IMG/VR virus record: IMGVR_UViG_3300046504_000195
Coordinates: 1-54,933 of that record
Strand: one strand, 5' to 3'
Origin: a virus
Lineage: Duplodnaviria > Caudoviricetes
Length of the DNA: 54,933 bases
Below, in pieces: positions 30,745 to 51,302 of this stretch (position 1 is its first letter; every line of letters begins with the position of its first letter). Made by a program: the position numbers and the translations under genes. The notes under the pieces are model-generated. The model did no database searches. It was not told the origin of the DNA and saw nothing but the letters and a program-made list of their open reading frames with translations.

Positions 30745-30752
30745 CAAAATAT

Positions 30753-30835: not shown

Positions 30836-30840
30836 CAAAA

Positions 30841-30972
30841 TGAAGTGATAGTAAAAATCGCAGGTATGTACTGCAGGTTGGCGTTCAGTCCAAATGAACT
30901 AAGTGTACAACGACCACTGAGGGCAGAAATGTTCCCAAGAGCAATATCAGTTAGCAGTACACTACCACTTCA
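30841..30972 (+). ncRNA. Multibranched structured ncRNA candidate
   Basis: TGAAGTG/CACTTCA, TGTACTGC/GCAGTACA, GTTCA/TGAAC, ACTGA/TCAGT, TGTTC/GAGCA. Confidence 0.5.
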
Positions 30973-31022
30973 GAAAGTTCCTAATATTTCCAAATTATTA
31001 CTAATTTAGGAATAATTAGTAA

Positions 31023-31280
31023 TTGTTAGTATTAACTTTAATAAGAAAGGAGTACATCTTCAAAATCAAATTCAGGTATCGCAGAACATTGTGGTGGAAA
31101 TTCGTACATTACAATTACTTCCACAAGAAACTCTTCAAAGAATATTATATTCAAAGGAGAAGAAAACCATTTAGTGACAGAGAAATCCAAAAATACGAAC
31201 TCTATAAGAAACTTGATGATTTGATTACATTAAGACGTGTTGATTGGTTACGAGAATTTATTTGGAGATTAGAACCATAA
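31023..31280 (+). CDS. Hypothetical basic protein
   Basis: ORF only; start uncertain. Confidence 0.4.
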   Translation: MLVLTLIRKEYIFKIKFRYRRTLWWKFVHYNYFHKKLFKEYYIQRRRKPFSDREIQKYELYKKLDDLITLRRVDWLREFIWRLEP

Positions 31281-31282
31281 AT

Positions 31283-31313
31283 TTGTAACATTTCCGGAAT
31301 TCATACGTATAAT
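31283..31313 (+). promoter_or_regulatory. ECF-like promoter
   Basis: TTGTAACATTT-N10-TACGTATAAT. Confidence 0.7.
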
Positions 31314-31338
31314 ATGTATTTATTGTAAATTTATAAAT

Positions 31339-31764
31339 ATGAAAAAGACATTTATTGTAATTATTATGTTGTTAATTTCTGCAATATCTTATTCGCAGAA
31401 ACCACATGAAAAGTATTATCAAAATATTGCTGCTGAACGCATGCATGGTCGAACTGAAGTTGTATTGGAAGATAGGTCTCGTGCAGATATTGTAACCGAT
31501 ACATTTGCGATTGAAGTTGAATTTGCTCATAAATGGGCAGAAAGCATTGGACAGTCAGAATTTTATTCATTAGAACTTCACAAGAAAGCAGGTATTGTAT
31601 TAATTACTGATGGAATGAAAGATGATAAATATGTTCAGAGATTAATGAAAGTTGCAACAAAACTTAAAATTACTGTTTGGGTAATATTTACCACTGACAA
31701 TAGTTGGGGAATTGTTGATAGCATTCCAAAAAAAGATGGAGAGCACATGAAATATATTTATTAA
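31339..31764 (+). CDS. Signal-peptide protein with PD-(D/E)XK-like motif
   Basis: MKKTFIVIIMLLISAISYSQ; RADIVTDTFAIEVEFAHKWAESIGQ. Confidence 0.6.
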   Translation: MKKTFIVIIMLLISAISYSQKPHEKYYQNIAAERMHGRTEVVLEDRSRADIVTDTFAIEVEFAHKWAESIGQSEFYSLELHKKAGIVLITDGMKDDKYVQRLMKVATKLKITVWVIFTTDNSWGIVDSIPKKDGEHMKYIY

Positions 31765-31805
31765 AACTTGTTAATCTCCCGATAAAAAGTTAATTTTGAT
31801 CCGTT

Positions 31806-32549
31806 ATGTATATCATTGCAAAGAAAAAAGATTATTATGATGGTGTTGCTGGTACAAGTGGCATCGACAAAACTATTGTTTATGAACGTGATACTATTGA
31901 AGTCGAAGACAAGGATGTGCCGGATTTTTTTCGGAAAACAACATTCTTTAATCATTTCAGGGGAAGAGAAGATAATCCCTTTTACAAATTAGGCAACTCT
32001 CATATGGATAATAAATATTGGGAAATATATCCATATCATTCATATTTTATTATTGGATTTTGTGGAAAACTCTATGTTGGCTTCAAACTCTATAGCATTG
32101 ATAAAAACACCAATGATTATAATAATGTTATCACAAGAATCACATATGATCGGGATTTAATGATAAAACTTTTTGAGAAAAAAACATATTGGGGACATTT
32201 TCAGGATAATCTTAATCACGTACTTCAATATGATGCAATGGATTGGTTTAGAAATATGAATACACCTTGTTTTGCATATGATCAAAGTTATGGTGGTATG
32301 AATCATATTGATTTGAAACATGGTAGAGAAAATTACGATTCAAAATTTATTATAAATCCATTACTAAAAGACTACGAATTTTATAAAGTATTTGACACAG
32401 TTCAGGCATTTCAGGAAATTCAGATGTTTATAGGTGGAGTACTTGGAAACAAAGAAAAGGAAATTGTAAATGTTGCAGATAAATATAAAATCGAACAACA
32501 CGGATTTGATAAGTGGAGTTTTAGAAAAATGCCGGAAGATAAAAAATGA
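31806..32549 (+). CDS. Hypothetical phage protein
   Basis: KDYYD..FCGKLY..AFQEI..HGFDK. Confidence 0.75.
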   Translation: MYIIAKKKDYYDGVAGTSGIDKTIVYERDTIEVEDKDVPDFFRKTTFFNHFRGREDNPFYKLGNSHMDNKYWEIYPYHSYFIIGFCGKLYVGFKLYSIDKNTNDYNNVITRITYDRDLMIKLFEKKTYWGHFQDNLNHVLQYDAMDWFRNMNTPCFAYDQSYGGMNHIDLKHGRENYDSKFIINPLLKDYEFYKVFDTVQAFQEIQMFIGGVLGNKEKEIVNVADKYKIEQHGFDKWSFRKMPEDKK

Positions 32550-32749
32550 AAAAGAAAAAATCTTTGGGTATAATGTCATTAATGTCAACAGGAAAATTGA
32601 CAATACCAACAAAAGAAGAATTGGAACGGGAATTTGGCAGACCATATAGACCAAATGATCCAATAATAATGGGTTCAATAGAGTTCATTGAAAAGTTTAA
32701 TAAGGCAATTGAAGAATACGATAAAACGCATGGAACAAAAACTACATAA
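32546..32749 (+). CDS. Hypothetical protein
   Basis: Start overlaps upstream stop. Confidence 0.55.
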   Translation: MKKKKSLGIMSLMSTGKLTIPTKEELEREFGRPYRPNDPIIMGSIEFIEKFNKAIEEYDKTHGTKTT

Positions 32750-32999
32750 AATACAAATACTTCCTGCTAAGTTCGTTGAAAAAAGACCTGATGGCAGATA
32801 TGTTGTGGGCATTTTAATTGCAGATGATCGTATTGACAACATGATATTTGATTCATTTTCACTTGAAGGTATGGTAAATCCAAAGTATTTACTGATAGGT
32901 ATAATGACAGGTGCAGGTTTTTCTCAGATAACATTTGTTGATGCAAATGATCTGGAAAAAACATTTAAAAAGAAATGGAAAGAATTAATTGATTATTGA
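32730..32999 (+). CDS. Hypothetical protein
   Basis: ORF from MEQKLH. Confidence 0.6.
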   Translation: MEQKLHKIQILPAKFVEKRPDGRYVVGILIADDRIDNMIFDSFSLEGMVNPKYLLIGIMTGAGFSQITFVDANDLEKTFKKKWKELIDY

Positions 33000-33000
33000 T

Positions 33001-33195
33001 ATGGAAGATTTTGACAAAGTAGTAGGAGAAATAATATCGCAATTAGCAAGTATTGAATATTGTGGTGATATGTCAGATATTGGAAATGAAATCGGAATTG
33101 CAATTGGTAATCAATTCGATAAAGATAATACAATTGAAGACTTTATAATGGGTCTGAGACACGGAGTATCTTTGGCAGATGGTACACATGGATAG
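33001..33195 (+). CDS. Hypothetical protein
   Basis: ORF from MEDFDK. Confidence 0.6.
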   Translation: MEDFDKVVGEIISQLASIEYCGDMSDIGNEIGIAIGNQFDKDNTIEDFIMGLRHGVSLADGTHG

Positions 33196-33209
33196 TTCTT
33201 TAAAATATT

Positions 33210-33561
33210 GGGGATGACTTGGTTTTGACAGCAGGATCGAGTAGTATTGTAAGCAAGTAGTAGTTGAATCAGACTACTTAAAAAAGGTTCAAAACAACAA
33301 ACGCAGAAGACATAATGTCTATTCCAACTTCTCTCACGAGAGGTAAAGCAGTTTTTGCAAGAAATACTGAACTTGCATTAGCAGCATAGGAAACAGCAAA
33401 AATCAGTAAAGAACCTTCCAACTTGAGGAAGTAATAATCAAGACGACTTGTAATTGTGTCGATGTACAATTAATATTTTGTTGGTTAAGAAAAACCAAAT
33501 AAACTTGTAGAAATCATATTAGTCACTTGACTGGACCGGGGTTCGACACCCCGCATCTCCA
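33210..33561 (+). ncRNA. ssrA: tmRNA; tag ORF 33303-33389 (AEDIMSIPTSLTRGKAVFARNTELALAA)
   Basis: GGGGATGA..TTGACAG 5' end; GGACCGGGGTTCGACACCCCGCATCTCCA 3' end; G3:U70; tag ends LALAA*. Confidence 0.93.
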
Positions 33562-33598
33562 CAAATTACTTAAATATTAAGTAGTTATTTGAAAATTT

Positions 33599-33684
33599 GG
33601 CAAAGTGGTGGAATTGGTAGACACGCAGGACTTAAAATCCTGTGGGCAGTGTTGCCTGTGTGGGTTCGACTCCCATCTTTGCTA
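33599..33684 (+). tRNA. tRNA-Leu(TAA), long arm
   Basis: GGCAAAG/CTTTGCT; loop CTTAAAA. Confidence 0.93.
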
Positions 33685-33728
33685 CAAAATTAAATGAAAT
33701 GAGATTTACTAATAAAATAAATGAAAAA

Positions 33729-34109
33729 ATGGCAACAAATCCAAAATTATTTGAAATTGCAGATACTTTAACTAAGTTGACAGTATTAGAAGCAAAACAA
33801 TTGATCGATATTCTCGAAAACGATTATGGAATCAAAGGAGCACAGAGCATCGTTCAGAAACCCGTGACAACTGAAGATAATATTGCCGTGGTTGAACAAA
33901 CTGAATTTAATGTGTATTTAAAGGAAATTGGTAATCAAAAATTACAGGTTATCAAAAAAGTAAAAGAAATACAGAATTTAGGACTTAAAGAAGCAAAAGA
34001 TTTGGTTGATTCTGCACCATGTTTATTGCGTGAAAAGGTTTCAAAAGCAGATGCAGAAATAATAAGAACTGAATTGCAGAATTTATTTGCTGTGGTTGAA
34101 ATAAAATAG
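33729..34109 (+). CDS. rplL: Ribosomal protein bL12 (L7/L12)
   Basis: LTVLEA..L, EQTEFNVYL, KLQVIKKVKE..NLGLKEAKDLVDSAP, VSKADAE, VEIK. Confidence 0.93.
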   Translation: MATNPKLFEIADTLTKLTVLEAKQLIDILENDYGIKGAQSIVQKPVTTEDNIAVVEQTEFNVYLKEIGNQKLQVIKKVKEIQNLGLKEAKDLVDSAPCLLREKVSKADAEIIRTELQNLFAVVEIK

Positions 34110-34257
34110 TAATTATGATAACAACTTATTATCAGTCAATACCAATAAACTATACGCCAATCATTGTGCCAATTGGTAGTCAATTCGATTTTCCAAATAT
34201 GGTTATGTGTAGTGGTGGCTTTTTAGTTTATTGCATGCCGTCAAAACCATTATTTCA

Positions 34258-34524
34258 ATGAAAAAACCAAATATTCCCATTGACATTCTATATGAAGAAT
34301 GTATTGTAGCAGTCAAGAAAGAAATCGCAAAGCAATATCATGCAGAGGCAAAAGAAATTATTCGATTGGCTTCAAGAGAAGATCGTCAAGAATTCTTAAA
34401 ATATTTCAGAGAAGATAAAGGCAATATTTGTTGTTTGGTCCTTGATAGAATAAAACGTGATTTGATAGCAAAGAAAAAATGGATAATGGAAAACATGGAT
34501 GATTTTGGTAAACCTTTGATATAA
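34258..34524 (+). CDS. Hypothetical protein
   Basis: ORF from MKKPN. Confidence 0.6.
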   Translation: MKKPNIPIDILYEECIVAVKKEIAKQYHAEAKEIIRLASREDRQEFLKYFREDKGNICCLVLDRIKRDLIAKKKWIMENMDDFGKPLI

Positions 34525-34715
34525 TGTTACCTTATGGAAAAAGTGCAAAAATGAGGTACAACTACACCGATTGTCATCCAAAAAGATTGAGTAAATTGTG
34601 GGGTGGAAAATGGGTAAATTGGTGGGAAGCAGAACTTGGTGGTATCGATAAGGGTGCTGAAAGGCAACGTATTAAAAGTGAGATAAAAAAAGAAATAAAT
34701 GGGATTACTATTTAG
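34524..34715 (+). CDS. Hypothetical protein
   Basis: Start overlaps upstream stop. Confidence 0.6.
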   Translation: MLPYGKSAKMRYNYTDCHPKRLSKLWGGKWVNWWEAELGGIDKGAERQRIKSEIKKEINGITI

Positions 34716-34899
34716 AAATTGGTTAGAAGAAGGTTATTATGAAGAAGACAGTTGGGGTGATTTAACACGAATTGAAGACTCTGCTGATATTCTTCGGGCA
34801 CAAAAAGAAGGTAAATTATACCAAAATGATGGTATGGCAACCACCAAAGTAGGTGAAGACGAAAAACTTGATTTAAGTCATGGCAAATACAAAGATTAA
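34699..34899 (+). CDS. Hypothetical protein
   Basis: ORF. Confidence 0.55.
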   Translation: MGLLFRNWLEEGYYEEDSWGDLTRIEDSADILRAQKEGKLYQNDGMATTKVGEDEKLDLSHGKYKD

Positions 34900-34983
34900 A
34901 AGGGAAAATGATTGTCATTGCGGAAAACCATTAAAAATTAATGATCCAAAGAGAAGAATTATTCGTAAAGTACCAAAGAAAAA

Positions 34984-35151
34984 ATGAAAAAACTTCCCAA
35001 AAAAGTAGATTTGCGGAAACATCTTAAAAATATTCCGGTTTACGACCAAAGTGAACTTGGTTCTTCTGTTGCATGTGCACTTGCTGTATCATTTGCACTT
35101 GAACATGCGAAGAAAAGTAACGTAAATTTTATTTATTACAACTCCAAGTGA
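34984..35151 (+). pseudogene. 55-aa fragment homologous to C1A peptidase N-terminus (catalytic Cys to Ser)
   Basis: LPKKVDLR..PVYDQSELGSSVACALA..FIYYN vs PPLVDL..PVYDQGDLGSCTANALA..FIYYN at 39463. Confidence 0.7.
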
Positions 35152-35223
35152 TGGAATTGGTAGTCAAGCATGCCTCAAAAGCATGTGCCGAAAGGCGTGT
35201 CGGTTCGAGTCCGACCTTGGAGA
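35142..35223 (+). tRNA. tRNA-Leu(CAA)
   Basis: CTCCAAG/CTTGGAG; loop CTCAAAA; long arm. Confidence 0.9.
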
Positions 35224-35228
35224 CAAAT

Positions 35229-35312
35229 GGCAAGGTTAATAGTACCAATGGGGTACAAACATAGCAAATGACTATGGAAAGAAAAAAGGTGGTTCGAATC
35301 CCGCCTTTGCCA
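35229..35312 (+). pseudogene. Aberrant tRNA-like element (loop CAAATGA)
   Basis: GGCAAGG/CTTTGCC acceptor and GGTTCGAATCC T loop, but A33 and irregular D/variable regions. Confidence 0.55.
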
Positions 35313-35335
35313 CAAATTAGGGAGTATTTATATGT

Positions 35336-35560
35336 ATGAATCATATAAGGATATTTGAGAAGTTAAATGAACAAAAAGGTAGAGCATTGGGTAAGAAAAT
35401 GGATGAAATTGATGAACTACTTAAACCACATACAATAATTTTGGAGAATGGTATGGAAGAAGTAACTATACCCGATGCTGAAACGGCTTTCAAATATGAA
35501 AAACTCATGAAAGAATTTCATGAAATTGTAGAAGAAATAAGACTTATAGATCAAAACTAA
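35336..35560 (+). CDS. Hypothetical protein
   Basis: ORF; late motif at 35324. Confidence 0.65.
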   Translation: MNHIRIFEKLNEQKGRALGKKMDEIDELLKPHTIILENGMEEVTIPDAETAFKYEKLMKEFHEIVEEIRLIDQN

Positions 35561-35615
35561 TGATTATGAAAAGAAATTGGGGATTCTTGTAACGCACTAA
35601 GGCGTATACGAGAAA

Positions 35616-35939
35616 ATGAAAAGCAAAACAATTAGTAAAACAACCACTAATCGTGGTGAATTTAATCGTGCCTACAAGTTTTATCTTGAACAATCAGGTA
35701 AACTTCGTTGTTCCTATTGTGGTTATCACCGTAATGAAAATTCTGATAAAAAATGGTATGGTGGATATGTTTACGATGACATGGAAAATTGTCGTGGTAA
35801 AAGAAAAGGAACAAATACCAGACATCCAAATTGGAAATTAGTTTCTAAAAAGCCAAAACAATGGATGAAAAAACCCATCAAATTTAATATAAGATATTAC
35901 GGTGGGTATCAACACATTTATATCGACATTATTTGGTAG
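35616..35939 (+). CDS. Hypothetical basic protein (CxxC)
   Basis: CSYCGYH..NWKLVSK..KQW. Confidence 0.65.
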   Translation: MKSKTISKTTTNRGEFNRAYKFYLEQSGKLRCSYCGYHRNENSDKKWYGGYVYDDMENCRGKRKGTNTRHPNWKLVSKKPKQWMKKPIKFNIRYYGGYQHIYIDIIW

Positions 35940-35951
35940 TGTCGATTTTAT

Positions 35952-36024
35952 ACCGCCATCTGTCCAATGGTTAAGACGGCTCTTTCATACGGAGTAGATC
36001 GTGGTTCGATTCCACGTGGCGGTA
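35952..36024 (+). tRNA. tRNA-Met or Ile2 (CAT)
   Basis: ACCGCCA/TGGCGGT; loop TTCATAC. Confidence 0.85.
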
Positions 36025-36025
36025 C

Positions 36026-36053
36026 AAAAAACCCATCGAATTCGATGGGTTTA
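36026..36053. terminator. Terminator between convergent units
   Basis: AAAAACCCATCGAATTCGATGGGTTT. Confidence 0.75.
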
Positions 36054-37713: not shown

Positions 37714-37776
37714 TAAGATGTTGATTTTTTATAAATACTTTGTAAACGTTTAAAATTTTAATATATTTGTACTTTA

Positions 37777-38295
37777 ATGAAATGCATGATACAGGAATAT
37801 ACAGGTGCAAGAACATCAATAAAACAAGTTCCGGCAGGATTTAAAATAGTTGACAAACACTTTGGTTGGCAGGCAAATACTGTCAATTTAGACATCGGTG
37901 GTGGAAAATATGACCTGATGACTGAAAAATTATTGAAGAAAAATGTAACAAATTTGGTATTTGATCCGTATAATAGGAGTTTGGAACATAATTTAAAGGT
38001 TGTTTACAGAATTTATGATAATGATGTTGATACTGTAACAATATTTAATGTACTGAATGTTATTAAGGAGTATAAAATACAATTACGACTATTAAGATTG
38101 GCTCGCAGTGCATTAAAAGTCGGTGGGATGCTCTACGTTAGGTCAACATATAAGAACCCCGCAAAACAATCGGGAGTGACCAAATCAGGAACGTTCCAAC
38201 ATTATAAAACACAAGAAGAATATCTTGAAATAGTAAAAAAGATTTTTCCCAAAGCAGAATTGAAATTCGGTATTATTTATGCAAAGAAAGGATAA
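37777..38295 (+). CDS. Class I SAM-dependent methyltransferase-like protein
   Basis: NLDIGGGKYD, FDPYNR, NVLNVI, LKVGG. Confidence 0.72.
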   Translation: MKCMIQEYTGARTSIKQVPAGFKIVDKHFGWQANTVNLDIGGGKYDLMTEKLLKKNVTNLVFDPYNRSLEHNLKVVYRIYDNDVDTVTIFNVLNVIKEYKIQLRLLRLARSALKVGGMLYVRSTYKNPAKQSGVTKSGTFQHYKTQEEYLEIVKKIFPKAELKFGIIYAKKG

Positions 38296-38297
38296 TT

Positions 38298-39407
38298 ATG
38301 GAATTATTATTAAAAGTTGATTGGAATGTTTTAAACGATTACATCGACAACAACCTTATCGTAGCAAACAAGCACCCAGAATATGATATCTGGATTCTTA
38401 ACTATTCTCCAAAGACTCAGGCAAAGAAATTTTGGGATGCATATACTATGTCATGTCGTGGACTTGTTGTTGATGCAGAAGGAAATATCCTTGCACGTCC
38501 ATTTCAGAAATTTAAGAACTATGAAGAACATGATCCATCAGAAATTGATATGTCACAAGCATTCGAAATCTATGAAAAAATGGATGGTTCACTTATCATA
38601 TTGTTTTACTATGAACCACGTATGGAATGGATAATTGCATCAAGAGGTTCTTTCATTTCAGAACAAATGATAGAAGCACAAAAATTATTTAATGCCGCAG
38701 TATATGATGCATTGAGTGTGCATTTGACATATCTGTTTGAAATTATATATCCAGAAAACCGTATTGTAGTTGATTATGGTAATAGAAAAGAACTCGTATT
38801 ACTTGCTGTGATCGAAACCGCAAGTGGTTTTGAAGTACAATACGAAAAAGTATTTGCCACGTATTCAAAATACTTTACTGTTGTTAAGCAATATAAAATC
38901 AAGAATATCAAAGACCTTAACGACTTGAAGAAACTTGAAGAAGACAACCGAGAAGGTTTTGTGGTAAAATTTCCGGATAAAAGGGTTAAAGTTAAGTTCA
39001 GTGAATATGTCAGATTACATGGTATCTTAACAAATGTTTCAAACTTAACTGTTTGGGAACACTTGATGAATAACTATGATTTTGATGCATTACTTGACAG
39101 AGTTCCAGATGAATTTTATACATGGTTACAAAATGTGGTTGCTAAATTACAATCAGGTTTTAATGACATCGAAAGAGAATCATTGAAAGAATTCACGAGA
39201 ATTTCACACATTAATGAAATTATTGGACGTAAAGAGTTTGCTGCAGAAGCAATAAAATCTCCATATCGTGCAATCTTATTCAAGATGTGTGATAAGAAAC
39301 CATACAGTGATTTGATTTGGAAAATGATCAAACCAACGTTCAGTAAACCATTCAAGGATGGTCATGAAATTACTGATTCGGATTACTTTGAACAAAAAGT
39401 AAATTAA
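38298..39407 (+). CDS. T4 Rnl1-type RNA ligase
   Basis: CRGLV, ARPFQKFKN, YEKMDGS, ASRGSF, FEII, EGFVV, VKVKF..Y. Confidence 0.88.
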   Translation: MELLLKVDWNVLNDYIDNNLIVANKHPEYDIWILNYSPKTQAKKFWDAYTMSCRGLVVDAEGNILARPFQKFKNYEEHDPSEIDMSQAFEIYEKMDGSLIILFYYEPRMEWIIASRGSFISEQMIEAQKLFNAAVYDALSVHLTYLFEIIYPENRIVVDYGNRKELVLLAVIETASGFEVQYEKVFATYSKYFTVVKQYKIKNIKDLNDLKKLEEDNREGFVVKFPDKRVKVKFSEYVRLHGILTNVSNLTVWEHLMNNYDFDALLDRVPDEFYTWLQNVVAKLQSGFNDIERESLKEFTRISHINEIIGRKEFAAEAIKSPYRAILFKMCDKKPYSDLIWKMIKPTFSKPFKDGHEITDSDYFEQKVN

Positions 39408-40264: not shown

Positions 40265-40786
40265 ATGAAAAGTATTGTTGACATCATAAAAGAAGAAATT
40301 GCAAGTGTAATGGTCGAAGACTATAACCATGCCAATTATTTAAAGTGGAAAAGACAAAACGTAACACTCAGAGGTTTACGTGATAATAATAATTCTGCGG
40401 AGAATGGTGGTATGGCTAAATATGGACAAGGTTTATATACTGCATTCTTAGGAAATAAGGAAATGGCAAAACAATATGGTAAGGTATATTTTGTTGTTAA
40501 TGCTATTCCAAAACATCCTAAGATTGTATATAGTACAAATGATGCAGAAATTTTCGAACAAGAAATGGTTACAAATTATTGTAAAATGCATGGCGTACCA
40601 AGAAGTAACGAATTTTTTAGTAAGAATACAACAATTGCAGATGAAATGCAAAGACTTGGATACGATGGTTTAGTCATAAGAGGCAGAGAAATGGTTAACT
40701 ACACTCCACCCGATAACGTGCTGTATTTCAATACTGAACAACAATTAATAAATTATTATGATGTCGTAATCGAAAAAAAATCATAA
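40265..40786 (+). CDS. Hypothetical protein, possibly ART-like
   Basis: TLRG..YGQGLY..AKQYG.V..GYDGLVI; N-terminal IIKEEI. Confidence 0.5.
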   Translation: MKSIVDIIKEEIASVMVEDYNHANYLKWKRQNVTLRGLRDNNNSAENGGMAKYGQGLYTAFLGNKEMAKQYGKVYFVVNAIPKHPKIVYSTNDAEIFEQEMVTNYCKMHGVPRSNEFFSKNTTIADEMQRLGYDGLVIRGREMVNYTPPDNVLYFNTEQQLINYYDVVIEKKS

Positions 40787-40802
40787 AATAGTTACGATTT
40801 TG

Positions 40803-40834
40803 TTTGGTGGTCTCGTATTTATATTATATTTTTG
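40803..40834 (+). promoter_or_regulatory. Bacteroidota-type promoter, tRNA array 3
   Basis: TTTG-N20-TATTTTTG. Confidence 0.7.
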
Positions 40835-40873
40835 TCACCTGATATTTTAAACAAACAGATAAAGAATAAAGCA

Positions 40874-40966
40874 ATGATTACATTTGGAACATATTATTTC
40901 GGTAAAAAATCTTATAAAAAGTACTTTATAAGAATCGGGAAATTTATGTCCATTTGTGAAAAATAA
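40874..40966 (+). CDS. Leader peptide 3 (MITFGTYYFGKKSYKKYFIRIGKFMSICEK)
   Basis: 8 of codons 7-17 are Lys/Tyr. Confidence 0.8.
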   Translation: MITFGTYYFGKKSYKKYFIRIGKFMSICEK

Positions 40967-40997
40967 GCAATAATTTTACAGACAATGGATTCTAAGC

Positions 40998-41026
40998 AAA
41001 CCCGATTCAAATGAGTCGGGTTTTTT
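40998..41026 (+). terminator. Attenuator terminator 3
   Basis: AAACCCGATTCA-AA-TGAGTCGGGTTT-TTT; 5' arm also pairs with GAATCGGG at 40932-40939. Confidence 0.85.
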
Positions 41027-41034
41027 ATTTGCAT

Positions 41035-41158
41035 AAAAACACATATTGTTGCATAAAAACTCTTAGAATATGTAAAATAGGTAGAAAAACACATATTTTG
41101 TGAAAAACAGTTATTTGTTATGAAAAACGTTTAAAAACATGGGGTTTTTATGAAAAAC
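41035..41158. repeat. Phased AAAAAC repeats
   Basis: Seven copies ending at 41040, 41060, 41090, 41108, 41128, 41138, 41158. Confidence 0.7.
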
Positions 41159-41164
41159 AGGTTT

Positions 41165-41236
41165 GTGCTCGTAGCAAAGTTGGTTTAGCCTCGGACTTTT
41201 AATCCGAAGACGTGGGTTCGAGTCCCACCGGGCACA
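41165..41236 (+). tRNA. tRNA-Lys(TTT)
   Basis: GTGCTCG/CGGGCAC; loop CTTTTAA. Confidence 0.9.
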
Positions 41237-41306
41237 CATGACAGGGTAGAACATTTTAGGATTTTTCGATGAACTGAGTAAAGGTATTCATGAGAAAAAT
41301 TCATTT

Positions 41307-41378
41307 GCACTCGTAGCAAAGAGGCAATGCTACTGCCCTTTAAGCAGACGAACGTGGGTTCGACTCCCACCGAGTGCA
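41307..41378 (+). tRNA. tRNA-Lys(TTT), C33
   Basis: GCACTCG/CGAGTGC; loop CCTTTAA. Confidence 0.85.
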
Positions 41379-41420
41379 CAATAAATTTGGTGATGGCATT
41401 AATGTCGTGAGCAAATAAGT

Positions 41421-41533
41421 GAGAATGTGGCTGAACGGAAAGTGCAGACTGAATTGGTACACTGCTTGGGTTTACAACCTTAACAAGCAGAAGAGGTCTG
41501 ATAAGTAAGCAGGTTCGAGTCCTGCCATCCTCA
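41421..41533 (+). tRNA. tRNA-like gene with ~40-nt insertion in the anticodon loop (identity uncertain)
   Basis: GAGAATG/CATCCTC; T arm GCAGGTTCGAGTCCTGC; CAGAC/GTCTG stem encloses CTGCTTG/CAAGCAG hairpin. Confidence 0.65.
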
Positions 41534-41539
41534 CAAATT

Positions 41540-41608
41540 GGGATTGATTCTTTGGAGAAACCGGGTCTGTAAAACCCCACATAGTAGGTTCGATGCCTAC
41601 CAGTCCCA
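41540..41608 (+). tRNA. tRNA-Tyr(GTA), compact, no long arm
   Basis: GGGATTG/CAGTCCC; loop CTGTAAA. Confidence 0.75.
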
Positions 41609-41614
41609 CAAAAT

Positions 41615-41686
41615 GAATCTGTGGCAGAATGGCTATGCTCTTGACTCTTAATCAAGATGATGAGGGTTCGACTCCCTTCGGGTTCA
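41615..41686 (+). tRNA. tRNA-Lys(CTT)
   Basis: GAATCTG/CGGGTTC; loop CTCTTAA. Confidence 0.9.
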
Positions 41687-41694
41687 CTAAAATT

Positions 41695-41937
41695 ATGATT
41701 ATGGAAAATATTACGACAATCGTAAAAGGAACAAATGCAAGTTTAAGCCATGTATGTAATGGCAAAGCATGCTATAAAATTATGACAGCAAATCATTCAT
41801 ATCAACTTGAAATAAATTTGATGGATGCTGAATGGAAGGATGTTTATGTATTTCCAGAATACAAGGCAATAACTTTGATGCGTTGGATCAGGAAAGGCAT
41901 TGAAAGTCAAGATGATTCATTCATAATGTTGAAATAA
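41695..41937 (+). CDS. Hypothetical protein
   Basis: KAITLMRWIRK motif; sits between tRNAs. Confidence 0.7.
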   Translation: MIMENITTIVKGTNASLSHVCNGKACYKIMTANHSYQLEINLMDAEWKDVYVFPEYKAITLMRWIRKGIESQDDSFIMLK

Positions 41938-41938
41938 T

Positions 41939-42019
41939 GAGTAGGTGGGTGAGTGGTTAAAACCGCCTGACTGTAGATCAGGTCCTTCGGGTTCGGGGGT
42001 TCGAATCCCTCTCTGCTCA
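41939..42019 (+). tRNA. tRNA-Tyr(GTA), long arm
   Basis: GAGTAGG/TCTGCTC; loop CTGTAGA. Confidence 0.9.
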
Positions 42020-42020
42020 C

Positions 42021-42049
42021 AACCCGTCAAGCAATTGACGGGTTTTTTT
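42021..42049 (+). terminator. Terminator ending tRNA array 3
   Basis: AACCCGTCAA-GCAA-TTGACGGGTT-TTTTT. Confidence 0.9.
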
Positions 42050-42171
42050 ATTTGCAGTATTTATAAGTCCAAATAATTTTTATTTAGTCTAATTAAAAAT
42101 AATCTTGCATTTCTGAAAGAAATGCATTATATTTGGGAAAAATAATTTTATTTTAATGCTTATGTATAAAA

Positions 42172-48656: not shown

Positions 48657-48687
48657 TTTGGTGGTAATGAAACATTTTATATCTTTG
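48657..48687 (+). promoter_or_regulatory. Bacteroidota-type promoter, tRNA array 4
   Basis: TTTG-N19-TATCTTTG. Confidence 0.78.
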
Positions 48688-48754
48688 CCACGTATTTAAT
48701 AGAAAACGAACTTATAATAGTTTTAATTAAGAGATCACAATTAATAAATAAATA

Positions 48755-48886
48755 ATGAAAACGTACAGGCACATATCAGCAATCATTACATCGACCTCAA
48801 GTCGCAACGGGATATCTATATTCTGTTCAGACTTTACAGGCAGAAATAATGGAATTGATACGGGTTATGGTTTTCTTATGAGATAA
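48755..48886 (+). CDS. Leader peptide 4 (MKTYRHISAIITSTSSRNGISIFCSDFTGRNNGIDTGYGFLMR)
   Basis: 26 of codons 7-34 are T/S/I/R/N/G/F/C. Confidence 0.8.
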   Translation: MKTYRHISAIITSTSSRNGISIFCSDFTGRNNGIDTGYGFLMR

Positions 48887-48907
48887 ACTTAAAAGTTTTA
48901 GTAAACC

Positions 48908-48939
48908 AAAAACCCGAATCGCAAGTTTCGGGTTTTTTT
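48908..48939 (+). terminator. Attenuator terminator 4
   Basis: AAAAACCCGAA..GCAA..TTCGGGTTTTTTT; 5' arm also pairs with GATACGGGTT at 48857-48866. Confidence 0.85.
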
Positions 48940-48956
48940 GTTGTTCTTTCAGATAT

Positions 48957-49027
48957 GCCGAGATAGTCCAAAGGTAGAACTTCTGTGTGGTATTCAGAGG
49001 ATACGAGTTCGAGTCTCGTTCTTGGCT
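48957..49027 (+). tRNA. tRNA-Thr(GGT)
   Basis: GCCGAGA/TCTTGGC; loop GTGGTAT. Confidence 0.8.
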
Positions 49028-49035
49028 CAAATAAA

Positions 49036-49137
49036 ATAAGGTTATAACCTTATATCTTATGAATATAAGATTATTGCCTTAATAAAATATAACTCTTACA
49101 GGTTATAAACACAATTAATAACCCAAGCAGGTTATTA
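49036..49137. repeat. Cluster of ATAACC/GGTTAT palindromes
   Basis: Perfect palindrome ATAAGGTTATAACCTTAT plus three related inverted repeats. Confidence 0.6.
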
Positions 49138-49147
49138 TCTGTAAGAC

Positions 49148-49159
49148 GATCTTTGACAT
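49148..49159 (+). promoter_or_regulatory. boxA-like element
   Basis: GATCTTTGACAT. Confidence 0.55.
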
Positions 49160-49171
49160 GCTGGTAATTTT

Positions 49172-49256
49172 GTCGGGATGCCTGAGTGGTTGAAGGGGAC
49201 GGTCTGCAAAACCGTTTGCTACGCACGCATGGGTTCGAATCCCATTCCCGACTCCA
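49172..49256 (+). tRNA. tRNA-Cys(GCA) with long variable arm
   Basis: GTCGGGA/TCCCGAC-TCCA; loop CTGCAAA. Confidence 0.88.
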
Positions 49257-49258
49257 AT

Positions 49259-49334
49259 GTTCCTGTCGTACTATAACTGGTAAGACCGCACCCTGTTAAG
49301 GTGAACAATGTAGGTTCGAATCCTACCGGGAACG
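49259..49334 (+). tRNA. tRNA-Asn(GTT)
   Basis: GTTCCTG/CGGGAAC-G; loop CTGTTAA. Confidence 0.82.
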
Positions 49335-49339
49335 CAAAT

Positions 49340-49412
49340 TGTCTCGTAACTCAGTTGGTAGAGTATCACACTGATAATGTGGAAGTCGTCAGTTCAAGTC
49401 TGACCGAGACAA
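49340..49412 (+). tRNA. tRNA-Ile(GAT)
   Basis: TGTCTCG/CGAGACA; loop CTGATAA. Confidence 0.92.
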
Positions 49413-49422
49413 CTAATAATAT

Positions 49423-49503
49423 AGTGAGGTGGATGAATGGTTTAGTCACCTGTCTGATACACAGGGTCGCAAGACGATGTGGGTTCGAGTCCCATCTTCA
49501 CTA
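49423..49503 (+). tRNA. tRNA-Ile(GAT) with long variable arm
   Basis: AGTGAGG/CTTCACT; loop CTGATAC; arm GTCGCAAGAC. Confidence 0.85.
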
Positions 49504-49532
49504 CAACCTGACGAGGTTCTTGTTGCAACATG

Positions 49533-49619
49533 AGCAACTGAAAGTTTATAGCATAGTGGCAATGCTGCCCATTGAAAAGGGTGAAGATTGGTTCGAATCC
49601 AATTAAACAATCGGTTGCT
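49533..49619 (+). ncRNA. tRNA-like RNA with extended acceptor stem and 8-nt anticodon loop
   Basis: AGCAACTGA-AA-GTTTA / TAAAC-AA-TCGGTTGCT; normal D and T arms; loop ATTGAAAA. Confidence 0.6.
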
Positions 49620-49624
49620 ATTTT

Positions 49625-49711
49625 GGAGAGTTGTCTGAGTGGTCTATAGAGGCGGTCTTGAAAACCGTTGGGCGTTCGTTCGCCCCGTGGGTTCGAATCC
49701 TACACTCTCCG
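49625..49711 (+). tRNA. tRNA-Ser(TGA)
   Basis: GGAGAGT/ACTCTCC-G; loop CTTGAAA; long arm. Confidence 0.93.
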
Positions 49712-49784
49712 CAAAGTCAAGTGCAATGGATTACATCACTTGACCTAAACATTGAAAAGGAAGTCATGAGCCAATTCAGTGTAA

Positions 49785-49938
49785 TAGTTCTGGGTTGCAT
49801 AAGAGGCTGCCCTAATGTTCAGTAGAAAATTTTGTGCACGCATTTGGCAATGCGGTTATGTGCATTATCGACTCCGAGACATTTATGATAGTTGTAATAC
49901 TAACGGGAAACGTGAGTAGAAGGCTCACACCAGAACTT
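49785..49938 (+). ncRNA. Structured ncRNA candidate
   Basis: Closing stem AGTTCTGG/CCAGAACT; inner TGCAC..CGCATT/AATGCG..GTGCA and GTGAGT/GCTCAC. Confidence 0.45.
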
Positions 49939-49942
49939 AAAC

Positions 49943-50015
49943 GGAGCAGTAGCAAAGGTGGTCTATGCACCGGACTGAAAATCCGGCTATGTTGGTTCGA
50001 CTCCAACCTGCTCCA
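49943..50015 (+). tRNA. tRNA-Phe(GAA)
   Basis: GGAGCAG/CTGCTCC; loop CTGAAAA. Confidence 0.92.
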
Positions 50016-50024
50016 CCGATTTTT

Positions 50025-50143
50025 CGATTTTTAGGCAAATCATCCTTCCTTCTTTTAGGACTATCCACGTCCTATGGGTTGCACGAATGCAAAATTCCCC
50101 CTGCCTCAGAGCAGGTGAATCCAAGAGGTTCAGCAAAAAGTCG
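50025..50143 (+). ncRNA. Four-hairpin structured ncRNA candidate
   Basis: CGATTTTT/AAAAGTCG closes TAGGAC/GTCCTA, TTGCA/TGCAA, CCTGC/GCAGG, TGAATC/GGTTCA. Confidence 0.5.
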
Positions 50144-50149
50144 TGGCAC

Positions 50150-50221
50150 GCAGGTGTAGCACAAAGGTTAGTGTGTCAGACTTCCAATCTGATGATGTGG
50201 GTTCGATTCCCATCACCTGCT
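50150..50221 (+). tRNA. tRNA-Gly(TCC)
   Basis: GCAGGTG/CACCTGC-T; loop CTTCCAA. Confidence 0.93.
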
Positions 50222-50275
50222 CAAAAAAGGTCTGAGGGAGTCCTTTAAAGGTATAAATAACCTGTCCCTCTCCAT

Positions 50276-50348
50276 AGTGGTGTGGCGCAATGGTTGGCGC
50301 AGGACTCTTATAAGGTCAAGGTTGGGGGTTCAAGTCCCTTCACCACTA
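50276..50348 (+). tRNA. tRNA-Ile(TAT)
   Basis: AGTGGTG/CACCACT; loop CTTATAA. Confidence 0.85.
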
Positions 50349-50353
50349 CAAAT

Positions 50354-50427
50354 GCATCGGTGGCTCAGTTGGTCAGAGCAATTGACTGTTAATCAATGGG
50401 TCGCAGGTTCGAATCCTGCCCGGTGCG
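50354..50427 (+). tRNA. tRNA-Asn(GTT)
   Basis: GCATCGG/CCGGTGC-G; loop CTGTTAA. Confidence 0.93.
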
Positions 50428-50499
50428 CAAAAATAATTTATTAAGTATTGATTTTGTAATCTATTTTGTTTACTTTTGAAGTTTACTTTATTTAATTAA

Positions 50500-50685
50500 A
50501 TGGAAGTTAATCTTGAAAAACTAAAAGATGAGAATATCAAATTGATTAAAAAAATCAAAAATTCTCGATTCACTAACGGTCATAGATACAAACAATGCTA
50601 TTTTGAACCGGATAAAAAAGTACCAAACAACTATAATTGTTGTTTACCTTGTGATATTTATTGTCCAAATAGAATAAAAAATTAA
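50500..50685 (+). CDS. Small Cys-rich hypothetical protein
   Basis: ORF. Confidence 0.5.
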   Translation: MEVNLEKLKDENIKLIKKIKNSRFTNGHRYKQCYFEPDKKVPNNYNCCLPCDIYCPNRIKN

Positions 50686-51035
50686 TGAAGAAATACTTAT
50701 TTGTAGGCGAAAGAAGAAGTCCAACTGCAATACGAATGAATGTCACATGGGTTGACAAACGCCTTTGTGCCGGACACCTTTCAAAAGCCGTAGAAAACCT
50801 TGGAATTGATTGGAATGAATGTGCCTTTTTAAATGTGTTTGAAGATGATATACGGGACATCAGAGTATTTAAAGGTGTAGTTATAGCAATGGGAAGAAAC
50901 GTTGAGAAAGTGCTTAAAAAAGAACAAATCAGGCATGAATTCATTTATCATCCTGCAACACGTGGAGCAGTAAGAAATATACAAAAATACAAGGATCACG
51001 TAAAAGAAAGAATAGGACACATAGTATTGTCATGA
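50685..51035 (+). CDS. Hypothetical protein, possible UDG-like fold
   Basis: LFVGE..FLNV..VIAMGR..IYHPA. Confidence 0.55.
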   Translation: MKKYLFVGERRSPTAIRMNVTWVDKRLCAGHLSKAVENLGIDWNECAFLNVFEDDIRDIRVFKGVVIAMGRNVEKVLKKEQIRHEFIYHPATRGAVRNIQKYKDHVKERIGHIVLS

Positions 51036-51226
51036 CAAATAAAAAAAAGAAAAAACAATATGACAGAAAACGTTATCTTGAAAAGAAACAATATTTCAAC
51101 GATAAAAGTAAAAAGTGGGCAGATGCTCATAAAGAATTTCTACAAGAATATCAAAAGGAATGGAATGAAAATCATAAAGACTATCAAAAAAACTATTATT
51201 TGGAACACAAGAAATTGCCGGAATAA
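51032..51226 (+). CDS. Basic helical protein (resembles an HNH N-terminal region)
   Basis: K/Y/W periodic repeats; overlaps tRNA-Thr. Confidence 0.5.
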   Translation: MTNKKKKKQYDRKRYLEKKQYFNDKSKKWADAHKEFLQEYQKEWNENHKDYQKNYYLEHKKLPE

Positions 51227-51289: not shown

Positions 51290-51302
51290 CAAAAATAAAA
51301 AT

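What the first reader, a model, noticed from the sequence alone, without database searches (positions are those of the whole stretch)
40874..41026. Attenuator 3: Lys/Tyr leader before a self-contained Lys/Tyr array
The YYFGKKSYKKY core uses AAA, AAG, TAT and TAC. The array is Lys(TTT)x2, Lys(CTT), Tyr(GTA)x2, closed by the terminator at 42021. Protector: TGGAACATA/TATGTCCA enclosing TCTTATAAA/TTTATAAGA. Antiterminator: GAATCGGG/CCCGATTC (8 bp). Established: tRNA-Lys is the target of PrrC and PARIS AriB, and tRNA-Tyr is a target of retron-associated PtuAB and colicin E5. Inference: this small dedicated unit may be an inducible counter-defence module.
Basis: partly seen in the sequence, partly recalled or inferred. 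Interest (0 to 1): 0.85.

Follow-up and report, generated by a model that had tools for sequence, protein, structure and literature searches.

The report
Lys/Tyr leader attenuator gating phage tRNAs
A huge bacteriophage seems to switch on its own lysine and tyrosine tRNA genes only when ribosomes stall on lysine and tyrosine codons in a tiny upstream reading frame, and three sister switches cover the other 18 amino acids.

Summary
Window 40803-41026 holds, in order, a Bacteroidota-type promoter motif, a 30-codon ORF (40874-40966) with a core of 8 Lys/Tyr in 11 residues, a long protector hairpin, an 8-bp antiterminator (40932-40939 with 41001-41008) and an intrinsic terminator (40998-41026). 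A Lys/Tyr-only tRNA array follows and ends at a second terminator (42021-42044).

The unit recurs in 52 distinct versions from viral and metagenome contigs:
- The ORF is open in 52 of 52.
- The protector shows compensatory changes.
- The antiterminator motif is kept even where the reading frame shifts.
- ARAGORN calls Lys or Tyr for 140 of 149 downstream tRNAs.

Three more units in the window use the same design with other cognate leaders. Together the four partition all 20 amino acids, and two complete relatives of about 350 kb do the same.

Best reading (0.77): a classical ribosome-mediated attenuator whose target is the cognate tRNA genes themselves, giving demand-driven tRNA supply. Its Lys/Tyr-specific counter-defence reading is untested and is weakened by the code-wide design. 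A T4 Rnl1-like RNA ligase next door and a C33 tRNA-Lys variant keep it open. I obtained no expression data, and seven literature searches found no description of such a system.

The parts
40803..40834 (+). Promoter-like site: TTTG, 20 nt, TATTTTTG (Bacteroidota -33/-7 type; the consensus is recalled)
   Evidence: 8 full matches in the window (4.3 expected). Four of them lie directly upstream of the four leader ORFs and none lies between a leader terminator and its tRNAs. The equivalent motif is present upstream of the relatives' leaders.
40874..40966 (+). Leader ORF, 30 codons plus stop: MITFGTYYFGKKSYKKYFIRIGKFMSICEK
   Evidence: The ORF is open in 52 of 52 distinct relatives, 26-31 codons long. 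YY and the first core Lys are invariant.
40892..40924 (+). Regulatory core, codons 7-17 (YYFGKKSYKKY): 4 Tyr codons (TAT x3, TAC) and 4 Lys codons (AAA x3, AAG)
   Evidence: Lys codons 11-12 lie in an unpaired internal loop of the protector yet are 90% or more conserved.
40883..40954 (+). Protector (anti-antiterminator) hairpin. Pairings: 40883-88/40949-54, 40890-93/40945-48, 40897-903/40934-40 and 40910-18/40925-33. It sequesters the antiterminator arm.
   Evidence: Fold. On 52 sequences 88.2% of cells pair against 37-49% when partners are slid. Seven pairs have changes on both sides, in 38 cells, reached by 0 of 500 shuffles.
40932..40939 (+). Antiterminator 5' arm GAATCGGG, inside leader codons 20-22
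   Evidence: RNAalifold picks this helix. 98.6% of cells pair on 52 sequences. The motif is kept in three different reading frames. One compensatory A-U to U-A change occurs in L041.
40998..41026 (+). Intrinsic terminator: stem 40998-41023 and T run 41021-41026. Its 5' arm 41001-41008 is the antiterminator partner.
41027..41164 (+). Spacer with about seven (T)G(N)A(W)AAAAC repeats. Function unknown. It is absent in most relatives.
   Evidence: conserved in 8 units including the window. In 16 of 25 relatives the first tRNA starts 157-165 nt after the leader ATG, directly behind the terminator.
41165..41237 (+). tRNA-Lys (UUU)
   Evidence: 64.6 bits
41307..41379 (+). tRNA-Lys (UUU) variant with anticodon loop CCUUUAA (C at position 33)
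   Evidence: alignment. Homologues in L049 and L122 are called Leu(taa) by ARAGORN through a one-base register shift.
41421..41533 (+). tRNA-like gene with a 45-nt insertion in the anticodon loop
   Evidence: 36.1 bits. ARAGORN does not call it.
41540..41608 (+). Weak tRNA-like element with GUA in the anticodon loop and no long variable arm
   Evidence: 25.7 bits, below the gathering score of 29. ARAGORN does not call it.
41615..41687 (+). tRNA-Lys (CUU)
41695..41937 (+). 80-codon ORF of unknown function inside the regulated unit
   Evidence: No Pfam or PHROG family. No informative Atlas hit. Conserved in L018, L032, L033 and L041.
41939..42020 (+). tRNA-Tyr (GUA), with long variable arm
42021..42044 (+). 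Intrinsic terminator that closes the unit

Best explanation
This is a ribosome-mediated (leader-peptide) transcription attenuator that gates a phage operon of tRNA-Lys and tRNA-Tyr genes.

How it is proposed to work:
1. Transcription starts at the promoter at 40803-40834 and a ribosome begins the 30-codon leader.
2. If Lys and Tyr codons are decoded quickly, the ribosome runs on. The local protector hairpin re-forms behind it and holds GAAUCGGG. The terminator (40998-41026) then forms and the transcript ends before the tRNAs.
3. If charged tRNA-Lys or tRNA-Tyr is scarce, the ribosome stalls on codons 7-16. It covers the 5' half of the protector but not GAAUCGGG.
4. The freed GAAUCGGG pairs with CCCGAUUC as that segment emerges. 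The terminator cannot form and RNA polymerase reads into the Lys/Tyr tRNA genes.
5. The new tRNAs relieve the stall, so the loop is negative feedback on the decoding capacity for these two amino acids.

Shown here: the sequence elements, their conservation, covariation in the protector, the cognate match, and the same design at three other arrays.

Inferred: that the ORF is translated, that stalling selects the antiterminator, and that the terminator works in the unknown host, which is probably a member of Bacteroidota.
For: 1. Anatomy. Promoter motif, ORF, protector, antiterminator and terminator stand in the classical order.

2. Cognate match. The four leaders were scored against the four arrays:
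- Their own amino acids are enriched: 9/23, 21/29, 10/29 and 33/42 residues, P = 1e-4, 7e-5, 3e-3 and 2e-6.
- No off-diagonal cell has P below 0.05. A six-frame background gives the same picture.
- Each leader is the only one of 349 small ORFs to reach its own best-window score.

3. The four units partition all 20 amino acids once in the window. The two complete relatives keep the same grouping: G005 has all 20, while ARAGORN called no tRNA-Ala in G004.

4. Conservation without selecting on the leader. 80 metagenome loci were found through the neighbouring gene:
- 39 have at least 2000 nt upstream, and 35 of those have a Lys/Tyr leader.
- In the 41 loci with a leader, 140 of 149 tRNA calls between leader and neighbour gene are Lys or Tyr, and 33 of 41 arrays are Lys/Tyr only.
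- Of the 9 other calls, the six examined are Lys/Tyr-like oddities and two lie on the minus strand.

5. Translation-type constraint. The ORF is open in 52 of 52 distinct units, 26-31 codons. One indel in the core is 3 nt (L046). The peptide after the core is free to change frame.

6. RNA-type constraint:
- Protector: 88.2% of cells pair against 37-49% slid, and 38 cells show compensatory changes, reached by 0 of 500 shuffles.
- Antiterminator: perfect in 51-52 of 52 units. It is kept in three reading frames, so it is not a peptide motif. L041 carries one compensatory change.
- The terminator tolerates a mismatch at the position that always pairs in the antiterminator.

7. No room for another promoter. 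In 16 of 25 viral-contig relatives the first tRNA starts directly behind the terminator. No promoter motif lies in the window's spacer.

8. Geometry. With the terminator's 3' arm not yet made, a 28-nt ribosome mask with its A site on codons 2-16 leaves all 8 antiterminator pairs, and on codons 18-27 none.
Against: - I obtained no direct evidence of transcription, translation, stalling or termination.
- Equilibrium folding does not by itself give a switch. With the whole RNA, the terminator is in the minimum-energy fold for 27 of 30 A-site positions, and the antiterminator only with the A site at codons 10, 11 and 13.
- In the nascent RNA the antiterminator state (-26.7 kcal/mol) is already below the protector state (-23.1) without any ribosome. 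Termination must therefore rest on kinetic trapping of the earlier-made local hairpin.
- The antiterminator is invariant in the alignments, so it shows no covariation there. Its support is conservation, frame independence and a single variant.
- Specificity is not absolute. 17 of 29 leader residues belong to the amino acids of unit 4 (P = 0.05-0.19), and several of them lie in the stall-competent stretch.
- Some Lys/Tyr codons lie in paired arms, so part of their conservation may be structural.
- The window has a 138-nt repeat-rich spacer of unknown function behind the terminator. It could hold a promoter of a kind I cannot recognise.
- Two relatives (L117, L127) have the leader but no terminator.
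- A more distant relative (G002) does not group its tRNAs by amino acid.
Confidence: 0.77

Rival explanations
1. The unit is primarily an inducible counter-defence module. Host anticodon nucleases that destroy tRNA-Lys or tRNA-Tyr cause the stall, and the induced phage tRNAs, some perhaps cleavage-resistant, restore translation. It uses the same mechanism as the best explanation and differs only in the selected function.
For: - tRNA-Lys and tRNA-Tyr are documented targets, and phage tRNAs rescue infection (abstracts of PMC11555353 and PMC11464382).
- A T4 Rnl1-type RNA ligase (phrog_562, E = 7e-68; PF09511, E = 3e-19) lies 1.5 kb upstream. It is syntenic with the unit in relatives, with under about 220 nt between it and the leader in L044 and L047. 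That T4 Rnl1 repairs PrrC-cut tRNA-Lys is recalled.
- One tRNA-Lys(UUU) copy has C instead of U at position 33, next to the wobble base. The variant is conserved in relatives.
Against: - The same design serves all 20 amino acids, so nothing singles out Lys and Tyr.
- Synteny within one phage family is expected from common descent.
- No defence gene, host or phenotype is available.
- No resistance of the C33 variant has been shown.
Confidence: 0.25
2. The short ORF is not a sensor. The element is an ordinary leaky terminator or a small-RNA gene. The tRNAs are made constitutively, by read-through or from an unrecognised promoter. The Lys/Tyr codons are a by-product of an A/U-rich structured RNA.
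For: - AAR and UAY codons are favoured in A/T-rich sequence.
- Part of the core lies in paired arms.
- The window's spacer could hide a promoter.
- Two relatives lack the terminator.
- Equilibrium folds do not switch cleanly.
Against: - The six-frame A/T-rich background still gives P = 0.0015, and only 1 of 349 small ORFs reaches the core score.
- Three unrelated leader sequences match their own, different, tRNA sets.
- Lys codons 11-12 are conserved although unpaired.
- The ORF is open in 52 of 52 units.
- In 16 of 25 relatives there is no space for a promoter.
Confidence: 0.08
3. The RNA senses tRNA or a protein directly, in the manner of a T-box or a TRAP-like system, without translation of the ORF.
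For: - The RNA is highly structured and conserved.
- The repeat spacer could bind a multimeric factor.
Against: - No T-box or other cis-regulatory family matches 40780-42080, even at E up to 1. Only chance-level small-RNA hits far below their thresholds appear.
- The start codon is invariant and the frame is kept open in 52 of 52 units.
- The spacer is absent in most relatives.
Confidence: 0.04

Closest known systems
Classical leader-peptide attenuators of amino-acid biosynthesis operons (trp, his, leu, thr, ilv, pheA of enterobacteria; recalled textbook cases; the modelling paper PMC1183508 was seen only in the listing)
   Same: - A promoter-proximal short ORF rich in codons cognate to the regulated product.
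- A protector, an antiterminator and an intrinsic terminator as mutually exclusive helices.
- A signal given by ribosome speed at the regulatory codons.
   Different: - The regulated genes are the cognate tRNA genes themselves, not biosynthetic enzymes.
- Two amino acids are sensed together.
- The element is viral.
- It is one of four units that together cover the whole code.
pheST (phenylalanyl-tRNA synthetase) attenuator of E. coli, and predicted attenuators of aminoacyl-tRNA synthetase operons (recalled; a survey of such operons is reference 7 of PMC4833913, whose passages I read)
   Same: Leader-peptide attenuation applied to a component of the decoding apparatus, giving feedback on the supply of charged tRNA.
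   Different: The target is a synthetase protein gene in a cellular genome. Here the output is the tRNA, so the product acts directly at the stalled codon.
T-box riboswitches
   Same: Transcription attenuation that responds to the state of a specific tRNA.
   Different: A T-box binds uncharged tRNA directly and needs no ORF. No T-box match was found here, and a conserved ORF is present.
Phage T5-type tRNA counter-defence (tRNA-Tyr against retron-Eco7 PtuAB; tRNA-Lys against PrrC and PARIS AriB): abstracts of PMC11555353 and PMC11464382
   Same: Phage-encoded Lys and Tyr tRNAs that can replace host tRNAs lost during infection.
   Different: [quoted passage not shown] Here a sensor of decoding failure appears to control expression.

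Membership tests
Ribosome-mediated (leader-peptide) transcription attenuator | Short translatable ORF directly downstream of a promoter and upstream of the regulated genes | tested here: met
   ORF 40874-40966, 40 nt behind the promoter motif. The ATG is invariant and the ORF is open in 52 of 52 relatives. Translation itself is not shown.
Ribosome-mediated (leader-peptide) transcription attenuator | Regulatory codons cognate to the regulated product | tested here: met
   8 Lys/Tyr in 11 codons, reached by 1 of 349 small ORFs. The downstream tRNAs are Lys and Tyr.
Ribosome-mediated (leader-peptide) transcription attenuator | Intrinsic terminator between the leader and the regulated genes | tested here: met
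   40998-41026. Present in 52 aligned relatives and missing in L117 and L127.
Ribosome-mediated (leader-peptide) transcription attenuator | Antiterminator helix that uses the terminator's 5' arm | tested here: met
   40932-40939 pairs with 41001-41008. 98.6% of cells pair on 52 sequences. One compensatory variant.
Ribosome-mediated (leader-peptide) transcription attenuator | A ribosome stalled at the regulatory codons frees the antiterminator, and an unstalled one does not | tested here: inconclusive
   The geometry fits: with the A site at codons 2-16 the arm is free, and at codons 18-27 it is masked. Equilibrium folds form the antiterminator in the nascent RNA even without a ribosome, so kinetic trapping has to be assumed.
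Ribosome-mediated (leader-peptide) transcription attenuator | Regulated genes encode amino-acid biosynthesis or aminoacylation enzymes (all described cases known to me) | tested here: not met
   The regulated genes are tRNA genes plus one small ORF. This is the respect in which it is a new variant.
Ribosome-mediated (leader-peptide) transcription attenuator | Read-through rises when the cognate charged tRNA is limiting | not testable with these tools
   Needs reporter or transcript assays.
T-box riboswitch | Specifier loop plus T-box sequence, recognised by the Rfam model | tested here: not met
   No such match among all Rfam hits up to E = 1 in 40780-42080.
Phage tRNA counter-defence (T5 type) | The phage encodes the tRNA species that a defence nuclease destroys | tested here: met
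   Lys(UUU), Lys(CUU) and Tyr(GUA) are present. The targets are named in the abstracts read.
Phage tRNA counter-defence (T5 type) | The phage tRNA escapes cleavage and rescues infection in a defended host | not testable with these tools
   A C33 variant of tRNA-Lys exists, but resistance and rescue are untested.

The most novel reading that the evidence does not exclude
The window shows a code-wide tRNA homeostat of a huge phage. Four leader-peptide sensors divide the 20 amino acids among them:
- Pro/His/Gln
- Asp/Glu/Val/Leu/Ala/Trp/Met, together with a tmRNA
- Lys/Tyr
- Thr/Cys/Ile/Ser/Phe/Gly/Asn/Arg

Each sensor derepresses only the phage tRNA operon whose codons are being read too slowly. 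Because the sensor reads the consequence (ribosome stalling) and not the cause, it would answer codon-usage mismatch, host tRNA decay and any tRNA-cleaving immune system alike. That would make it a generic, self-limiting counter to tRNA-targeting defence.
Probability: 0.45. Interest if true: 0.95.

Novelty: new variant of a known kind. Interest (0 to 1): 0.88.

Why it matters
Leader-peptide attenuation is a textbook mechanism. As far as I recall, and as far as seven full-text searches show, it has been described for amino-acid biosynthesis and synthetase genes, not for tRNA genes and not in a virus.

If the reading holds:
- It shows how a virus with a near-complete tRNA set decides when to make which tRNAs.
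- It gives a natural sensor of codon-specific decoding capacity.
- It makes two questions directly testable: why huge phages carry so many tRNAs, and whether phage tRNA expression responds to tRNA-targeting immunity. One reporter construct per unit would do.
- The units are compact (about 190 nt) and modular, so they could also serve as parts for sensing tRNA availability.

Tried and rejected
- Named phage genomes: only tRNA-sized matches covering 2-3% of the query, so no annotated relative.
- Expression: no RNA holder was listed among 24 runs, and all holders are DNA metagenomes kept as contigs.
- Rfam gave no regulatory family over the leader.
- Repeat motif of the spacer: a loose pattern is not enriched in the window, 13 matches against 16.7 expected. 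The spacer's function stays open.
- A candidate helix between the Lys-codon stretch and the conserved motif behind the stop codon was inconclusive: 72.4% of cells pair against 64.5% with a one-column slide.
- A peptide-pattern scan for the Pro/His/Gln leader core gave 11 unrelated G+C-rich hits, none followed by tRNAs. It serves only as a negative control. That unit's relatives were found instead by fetching G004.
- Bacterial genomes: the Lys/Tyr leader pattern hit one contig of 362,763 bases, filed under a Candidatus Paceibacterota MAG. It has the same length as a viral contig of this family and is probably a binned phage contig.
- The ORF inside the array has no Pfam, PHROG or useful Atlas hit.
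- My first automatic leader finder missed many ORFs, and its regex missed L089 and L099, which do have the terminator.
- Rows left out of alignment A3: duplicates, L075 (terminator mis-detected by my script), L117 and L127 (no terminator), L011 and L024 (locus ends inside the unit).
- Supplementary files of papers were closed and not consulted.
- Papers:
  - PMC11555353 and PMC11464382: outline and abstract only.
  - PMC4833913: passages found by term.
  - All others: search listings only.

Full report
**What the window is**

The window is the whole record held, 54,933 bases. It carries 45 tRNA genes and a tmRNA, all on the + strand. Homing-type HNH endonuclease ORFs lie among them. Neighbouring genes include a class I-type ribonucleotide reductase, a papain-like protease and a T4 Rnl1-like RNA ligase.

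- Relatives are viral contigs of up to 365 kb.
- Two are complete by CheckV, G004 of 348,923 bases and G005 of 364,702 bases with terminal repeats.
- The window is therefore a piece of a huge phage.
- Promoter-like sites follow the TTTG ... TAnnTTTG pattern, which I recall as the Bacteroidota consensus. That suggests the host phylum. This is an inference.

**The observation**

- The ORF 40874-40966 encodes MITFGTYYFGKKSYKKYFIRIGKFMSICEK.
- The terminator is 40998-41023, with T's to 41026.
- The minimum-energy fold is one long hairpin over the ORF plus the terminator. It has z = -4.84, and 0 of 200 shuffles fold as well.
- GAATCGGG (40932-40939) is complementary to the terminator's 5' arm.
- Downstream lie Lys(ttt), Lys(ttt), Lys(ctt) and Tyr(gta).
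- Rfam adds an insertion-bearing tRNA-like gene at 36.1 bits and a sub-threshold GUA element at 25.7 bits.
- There is also an 80-codon ORF and a closing terminator at 42021-42044.
- The core of 8 Lys/Tyr in 11 residues is reached by 1 of 349 small ORFs of the window, namely this one.

**It is one of four units**

Terminators with the same look stand just before three other arrays. Each is preceded by a promoter motif and a short ORF.

| Unit | Leader (or its core) | tRNAs downstream |
|---|---|---|
| 1 | HIQPQPQHPQ (core) | Pro, His, Gln |
| 2 | MKRLFDILVAVLMVDVLLWAAEEDKLCTVG | Asp, Glu, Val, Leu, Ala, Trp, a tmRNA, Leu, Met, up to the terminator at 36032 |
| 3 | YYFGKKSYKKY (core; this finding) | Lys, Tyr |
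| 4 | MKTYRHISAIITSTSSRNGISIFCSDFTGRNNGIDTGYGFLMR | Thr, Cys, Ile, Ser, Phe, Gly, Asn, Arg |

- In a leader-by-unit matrix only the diagonal is enriched, with P from 3e-3 to 2e-6. No off-diagonal cell has P below 0.05.
- The four sets contain each of the 20 amino acids exactly once.
- That units 2 and 4 are single transcription units is inferred from the lack of strong + strand terminators inside them.
- All four show a protector hairpin over the ORF and a 6-8 bp antiterminator candidate in its 3' half.

**Relatives**

Selected on the peptide core:
- A degenerate pattern for the peptide core found 27 viral contigs.
- All 25 with enough sequence carry Lys/Tyr arrays behind the leader.
- The two odd calls are a 114-nt intron-mode call in L009 and a call at the locus end in L018.
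- A structure-only pattern added four units with diverged cores such as YYLYKTYKK and SYYRYKSYKK.

Selected without using the leader:
- I scanned metagenome contigs with the neighbouring VWA-like protein and obtained 80 loci.
- 35 of the 39 loci with at least 2000 nt upstream have a Lys/Tyr leader.
- 140 of 149 tRNA calls between leader and neighbour gene are Lys or Tyr.
- Of the 9 other calls, the six examined are Lys/Tyr-like tRNAs with a C33 loop or with insertions, and two lie on the minus strand.

Complete genomes:
- G004 and G005 show the same grouping into four units, with cognate leaders wherever the fetched sequence reached them. ARAGORN called no tRNA-Ala in G004.
- G001 conserves the leaders of units 2 and 4.
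- Four further unit-4 leaders differ in sequence but keep the Thr/Ser/Ile/Asn/Gly/Phe/Cys/Arg-rich make-up.
- G002, a more distant relative, does not group its tRNAs by amino acid.

**Constraints on the Lys/Tyr unit (52 distinct versions, alignment A3)**

- The ATG is invariant and the ORF is open in all 52, at 26-31 codons.
- YY and the first core Lys are invariant.
- The protector pairs in 88.2% of cells against 37-49% when partners are slid. Seven pairs have changes on both sides, in 38 cells, which 0 of 500 shuffles reach.
- RNAalifold on the first 21 sequences chose the antiterminator as the consensus long-range helix. It pairs in 98.6% of cells.
- GAATCGGG is read as R/G-I-G in most units. 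After one-base indels it is read as E-S-G or in a third frame, so it is conserved as RNA.
- In L041 the arm reads GATTCGGG and the partner CCCGAATTC. This is an A-U to U-A exchange that keeps the helix.
- The terminator's 3' arm often leaves a mismatch at exactly this position.
- The stretch between the stop codon and the terminator is variable, apart from a short motif of unknown role.

**Mechanism**

I assumed a 28-nt ribosome footprint (recalled) and the terminator's 3' arm not yet transcribed.

- An A site on codons 2-16 leaves all 8 antiterminator pairs.
- An A site on codons 18-27 masks the arm.
- Seven of the eight Lys/Tyr codons of the core lie within codons 7-16.

Equilibrium folding alone does not discriminate:
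- In the nascent RNA the antiterminator state (-26.7 kcal/mol) is below the protector state (-23.1) even without a ribosome.
- In the full RNA the terminator wins at 27 of 30 A-site positions.

The model therefore needs the usual kinetic assumption. The local protector, made about 60 nt earlier, forms first and re-forms behind a ribosome that does not stall. Units 1 and 2 do switch at equilibrium.

**Can the tRNAs be transcribed independently?**

- In 16 of 25 viral-contig relatives the first tRNA starts 157-165 nt after the leader ATG, which is directly behind the terminator.
- The window and seven of the relatives aligned instead carry a conserved spacer of about 140 nt with A-tract repeats.
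- The spacer has no Bacteroidota-type promoter motif (sequence). Its function is unknown, and I cannot exclude a promoter of another type.

**Function**

The design is negative feedback. Slow decoding of Lys/Tyr codons turns on Lys/Tyr tRNA genes. Because all amino acids are served in the same way, the simplest purpose is demand-driven supply of tRNA during infection.

- In its favour: Lys and Tyr tRNAs are known targets of anti-phage nucleases (abstracts). An Rnl1-type ligase is a conserved neighbour. One tRNA-Lys copy has C33.
- Against it as the sole purpose: the design is code-wide.

**Novelty**

- Seven full-text searches found no paper describing leader-peptide attenuators in front of tRNA genes or in phages.
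- Supplements could not be read.
- The mechanism is of a known kind. The target, the viral setting and the four-way partition of the code are new to my knowledge.
- The Lys/Tyr pattern was absent from one genome each of 185,579 prokaryote species, apart from one probable phage contig in a MAG.

**Verdict**

- The attenuator reading is well supported by comparative evidence but lacks any expression or biochemical test.
- The defence-specific reading remains open.
- Confidence in the attenuator mechanism is 0.77 and interest is 0.88.

Noticed in passing
window 21276-22489; 27097-36049; 48657-54748: Three further units of the form promoter, leader ORF, terminator, tRNA array, with leaders rich in the cognate amino acids: Pro/His/Gln; Asp/Glu/Val/Leu/Ala/Trp/Met; Thr/Cys/Ile/Ser/Phe/Gly/Asn/Arg. 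With the Lys/Tyr unit they cover each of the 20 amino acids once.
   Followed up: partly
window 33082-33564: A phage tmRNA gene lies inside unit 2, with no strong + strand terminator before it. If it is co-transcribed, ribosome stalling would also induce the ribosome-rescue RNA.
   Followed up: no
window 41027-41164: A 138-nt spacer with about seven repeats of (T)G(N)A(W)AAAAC at roughly 20-nt spacing lies between the terminator and the first tRNA. It is conserved in 8 units including the window and absent in most relatives. Its function is unknown.
   Followed up: partly
window 41307-41379: A tRNA-Lys(UUU) copy has the anticodon loop CCUUUAA, with C where U33 is almost universal (recalled). 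It is conserved in L049 and L122, where ARAGORN calls it Leu(taa).
   Followed up: partly
window 41421-41533; also 21495-21590, 22317-22400, 29801-29887: Several tRNA genes are oversized. One has a 45-nt insertion in the anticodon loop. Relatives carry similar insertion-bearing Lys-like genes, in L100 and L114. The insertions are too short for group I introns (recalled), and how they would be processed is unknown.
   Followed up: partly
window 37777-39407: A T4 Rnl1-like RNA ligase (38298-39407; phrog_562, E = 7e-68) is preceded by a 172-aa protein of no known family and has its own promoter motif at 37739-37769. The pair is syntenic with the Lys/Tyr unit in many relatives.
   Followed up: partly
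window 27350-27371; G001 (reverse strand of L004-L006) before its unit 2 and unit 4 arrays: A 22-nt motif, TTCTTTGACATGTTGGAAATTT, abuts the first tRNA of unit 2. It recurs in near-identical form before the first tRNA of two units in G001. It may be a processing signal or a promoter of another type.
   Followed up: no
window 40967-40980 and alignment A3 columns 112-138: A short motif, GCAATGAYTTT, just behind the leader stop codon is conserved although its surroundings vary. A proposed pairing with the Lys-codon stretch was inconclusive.
   Followed up: partly
window 49542-49612: ARAGORN calls a tRNA with a four-base anticodon (tgaa). Rfam scores it 34.3 bits.
   Followed up: no
G001, G004 and G005, downstream of unit 4: Each relative has a tRNA with anticodon CTA (amber-reading) beyond the Arg tRNAs, which hints at TAG reassignment or suppression in this phage family. 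The window ends before that point.
   Followed up: no
L117 and L127: Two metagenome relatives keep the Lys/Tyr leader but have lost the terminator hairpin. They may be naturally derepressed variants.
   Followed up: partly
L129 (genome contigs): A contig of 362,763 bases carrying the Lys/Tyr leader is filed in a Candidatus Paceibacterota MAG. An IMG/VR contig of the same length (L032) carries the same unit, so this is probably a phage contig binned into a bacterial MAG.
   Followed up: no
window 27505-28155; 29318-29728: ORFs matching HNH endonuclease families are inserted between tRNA genes. Relatives have similar ORFs at other places in the arrays.
   Followed up: partly
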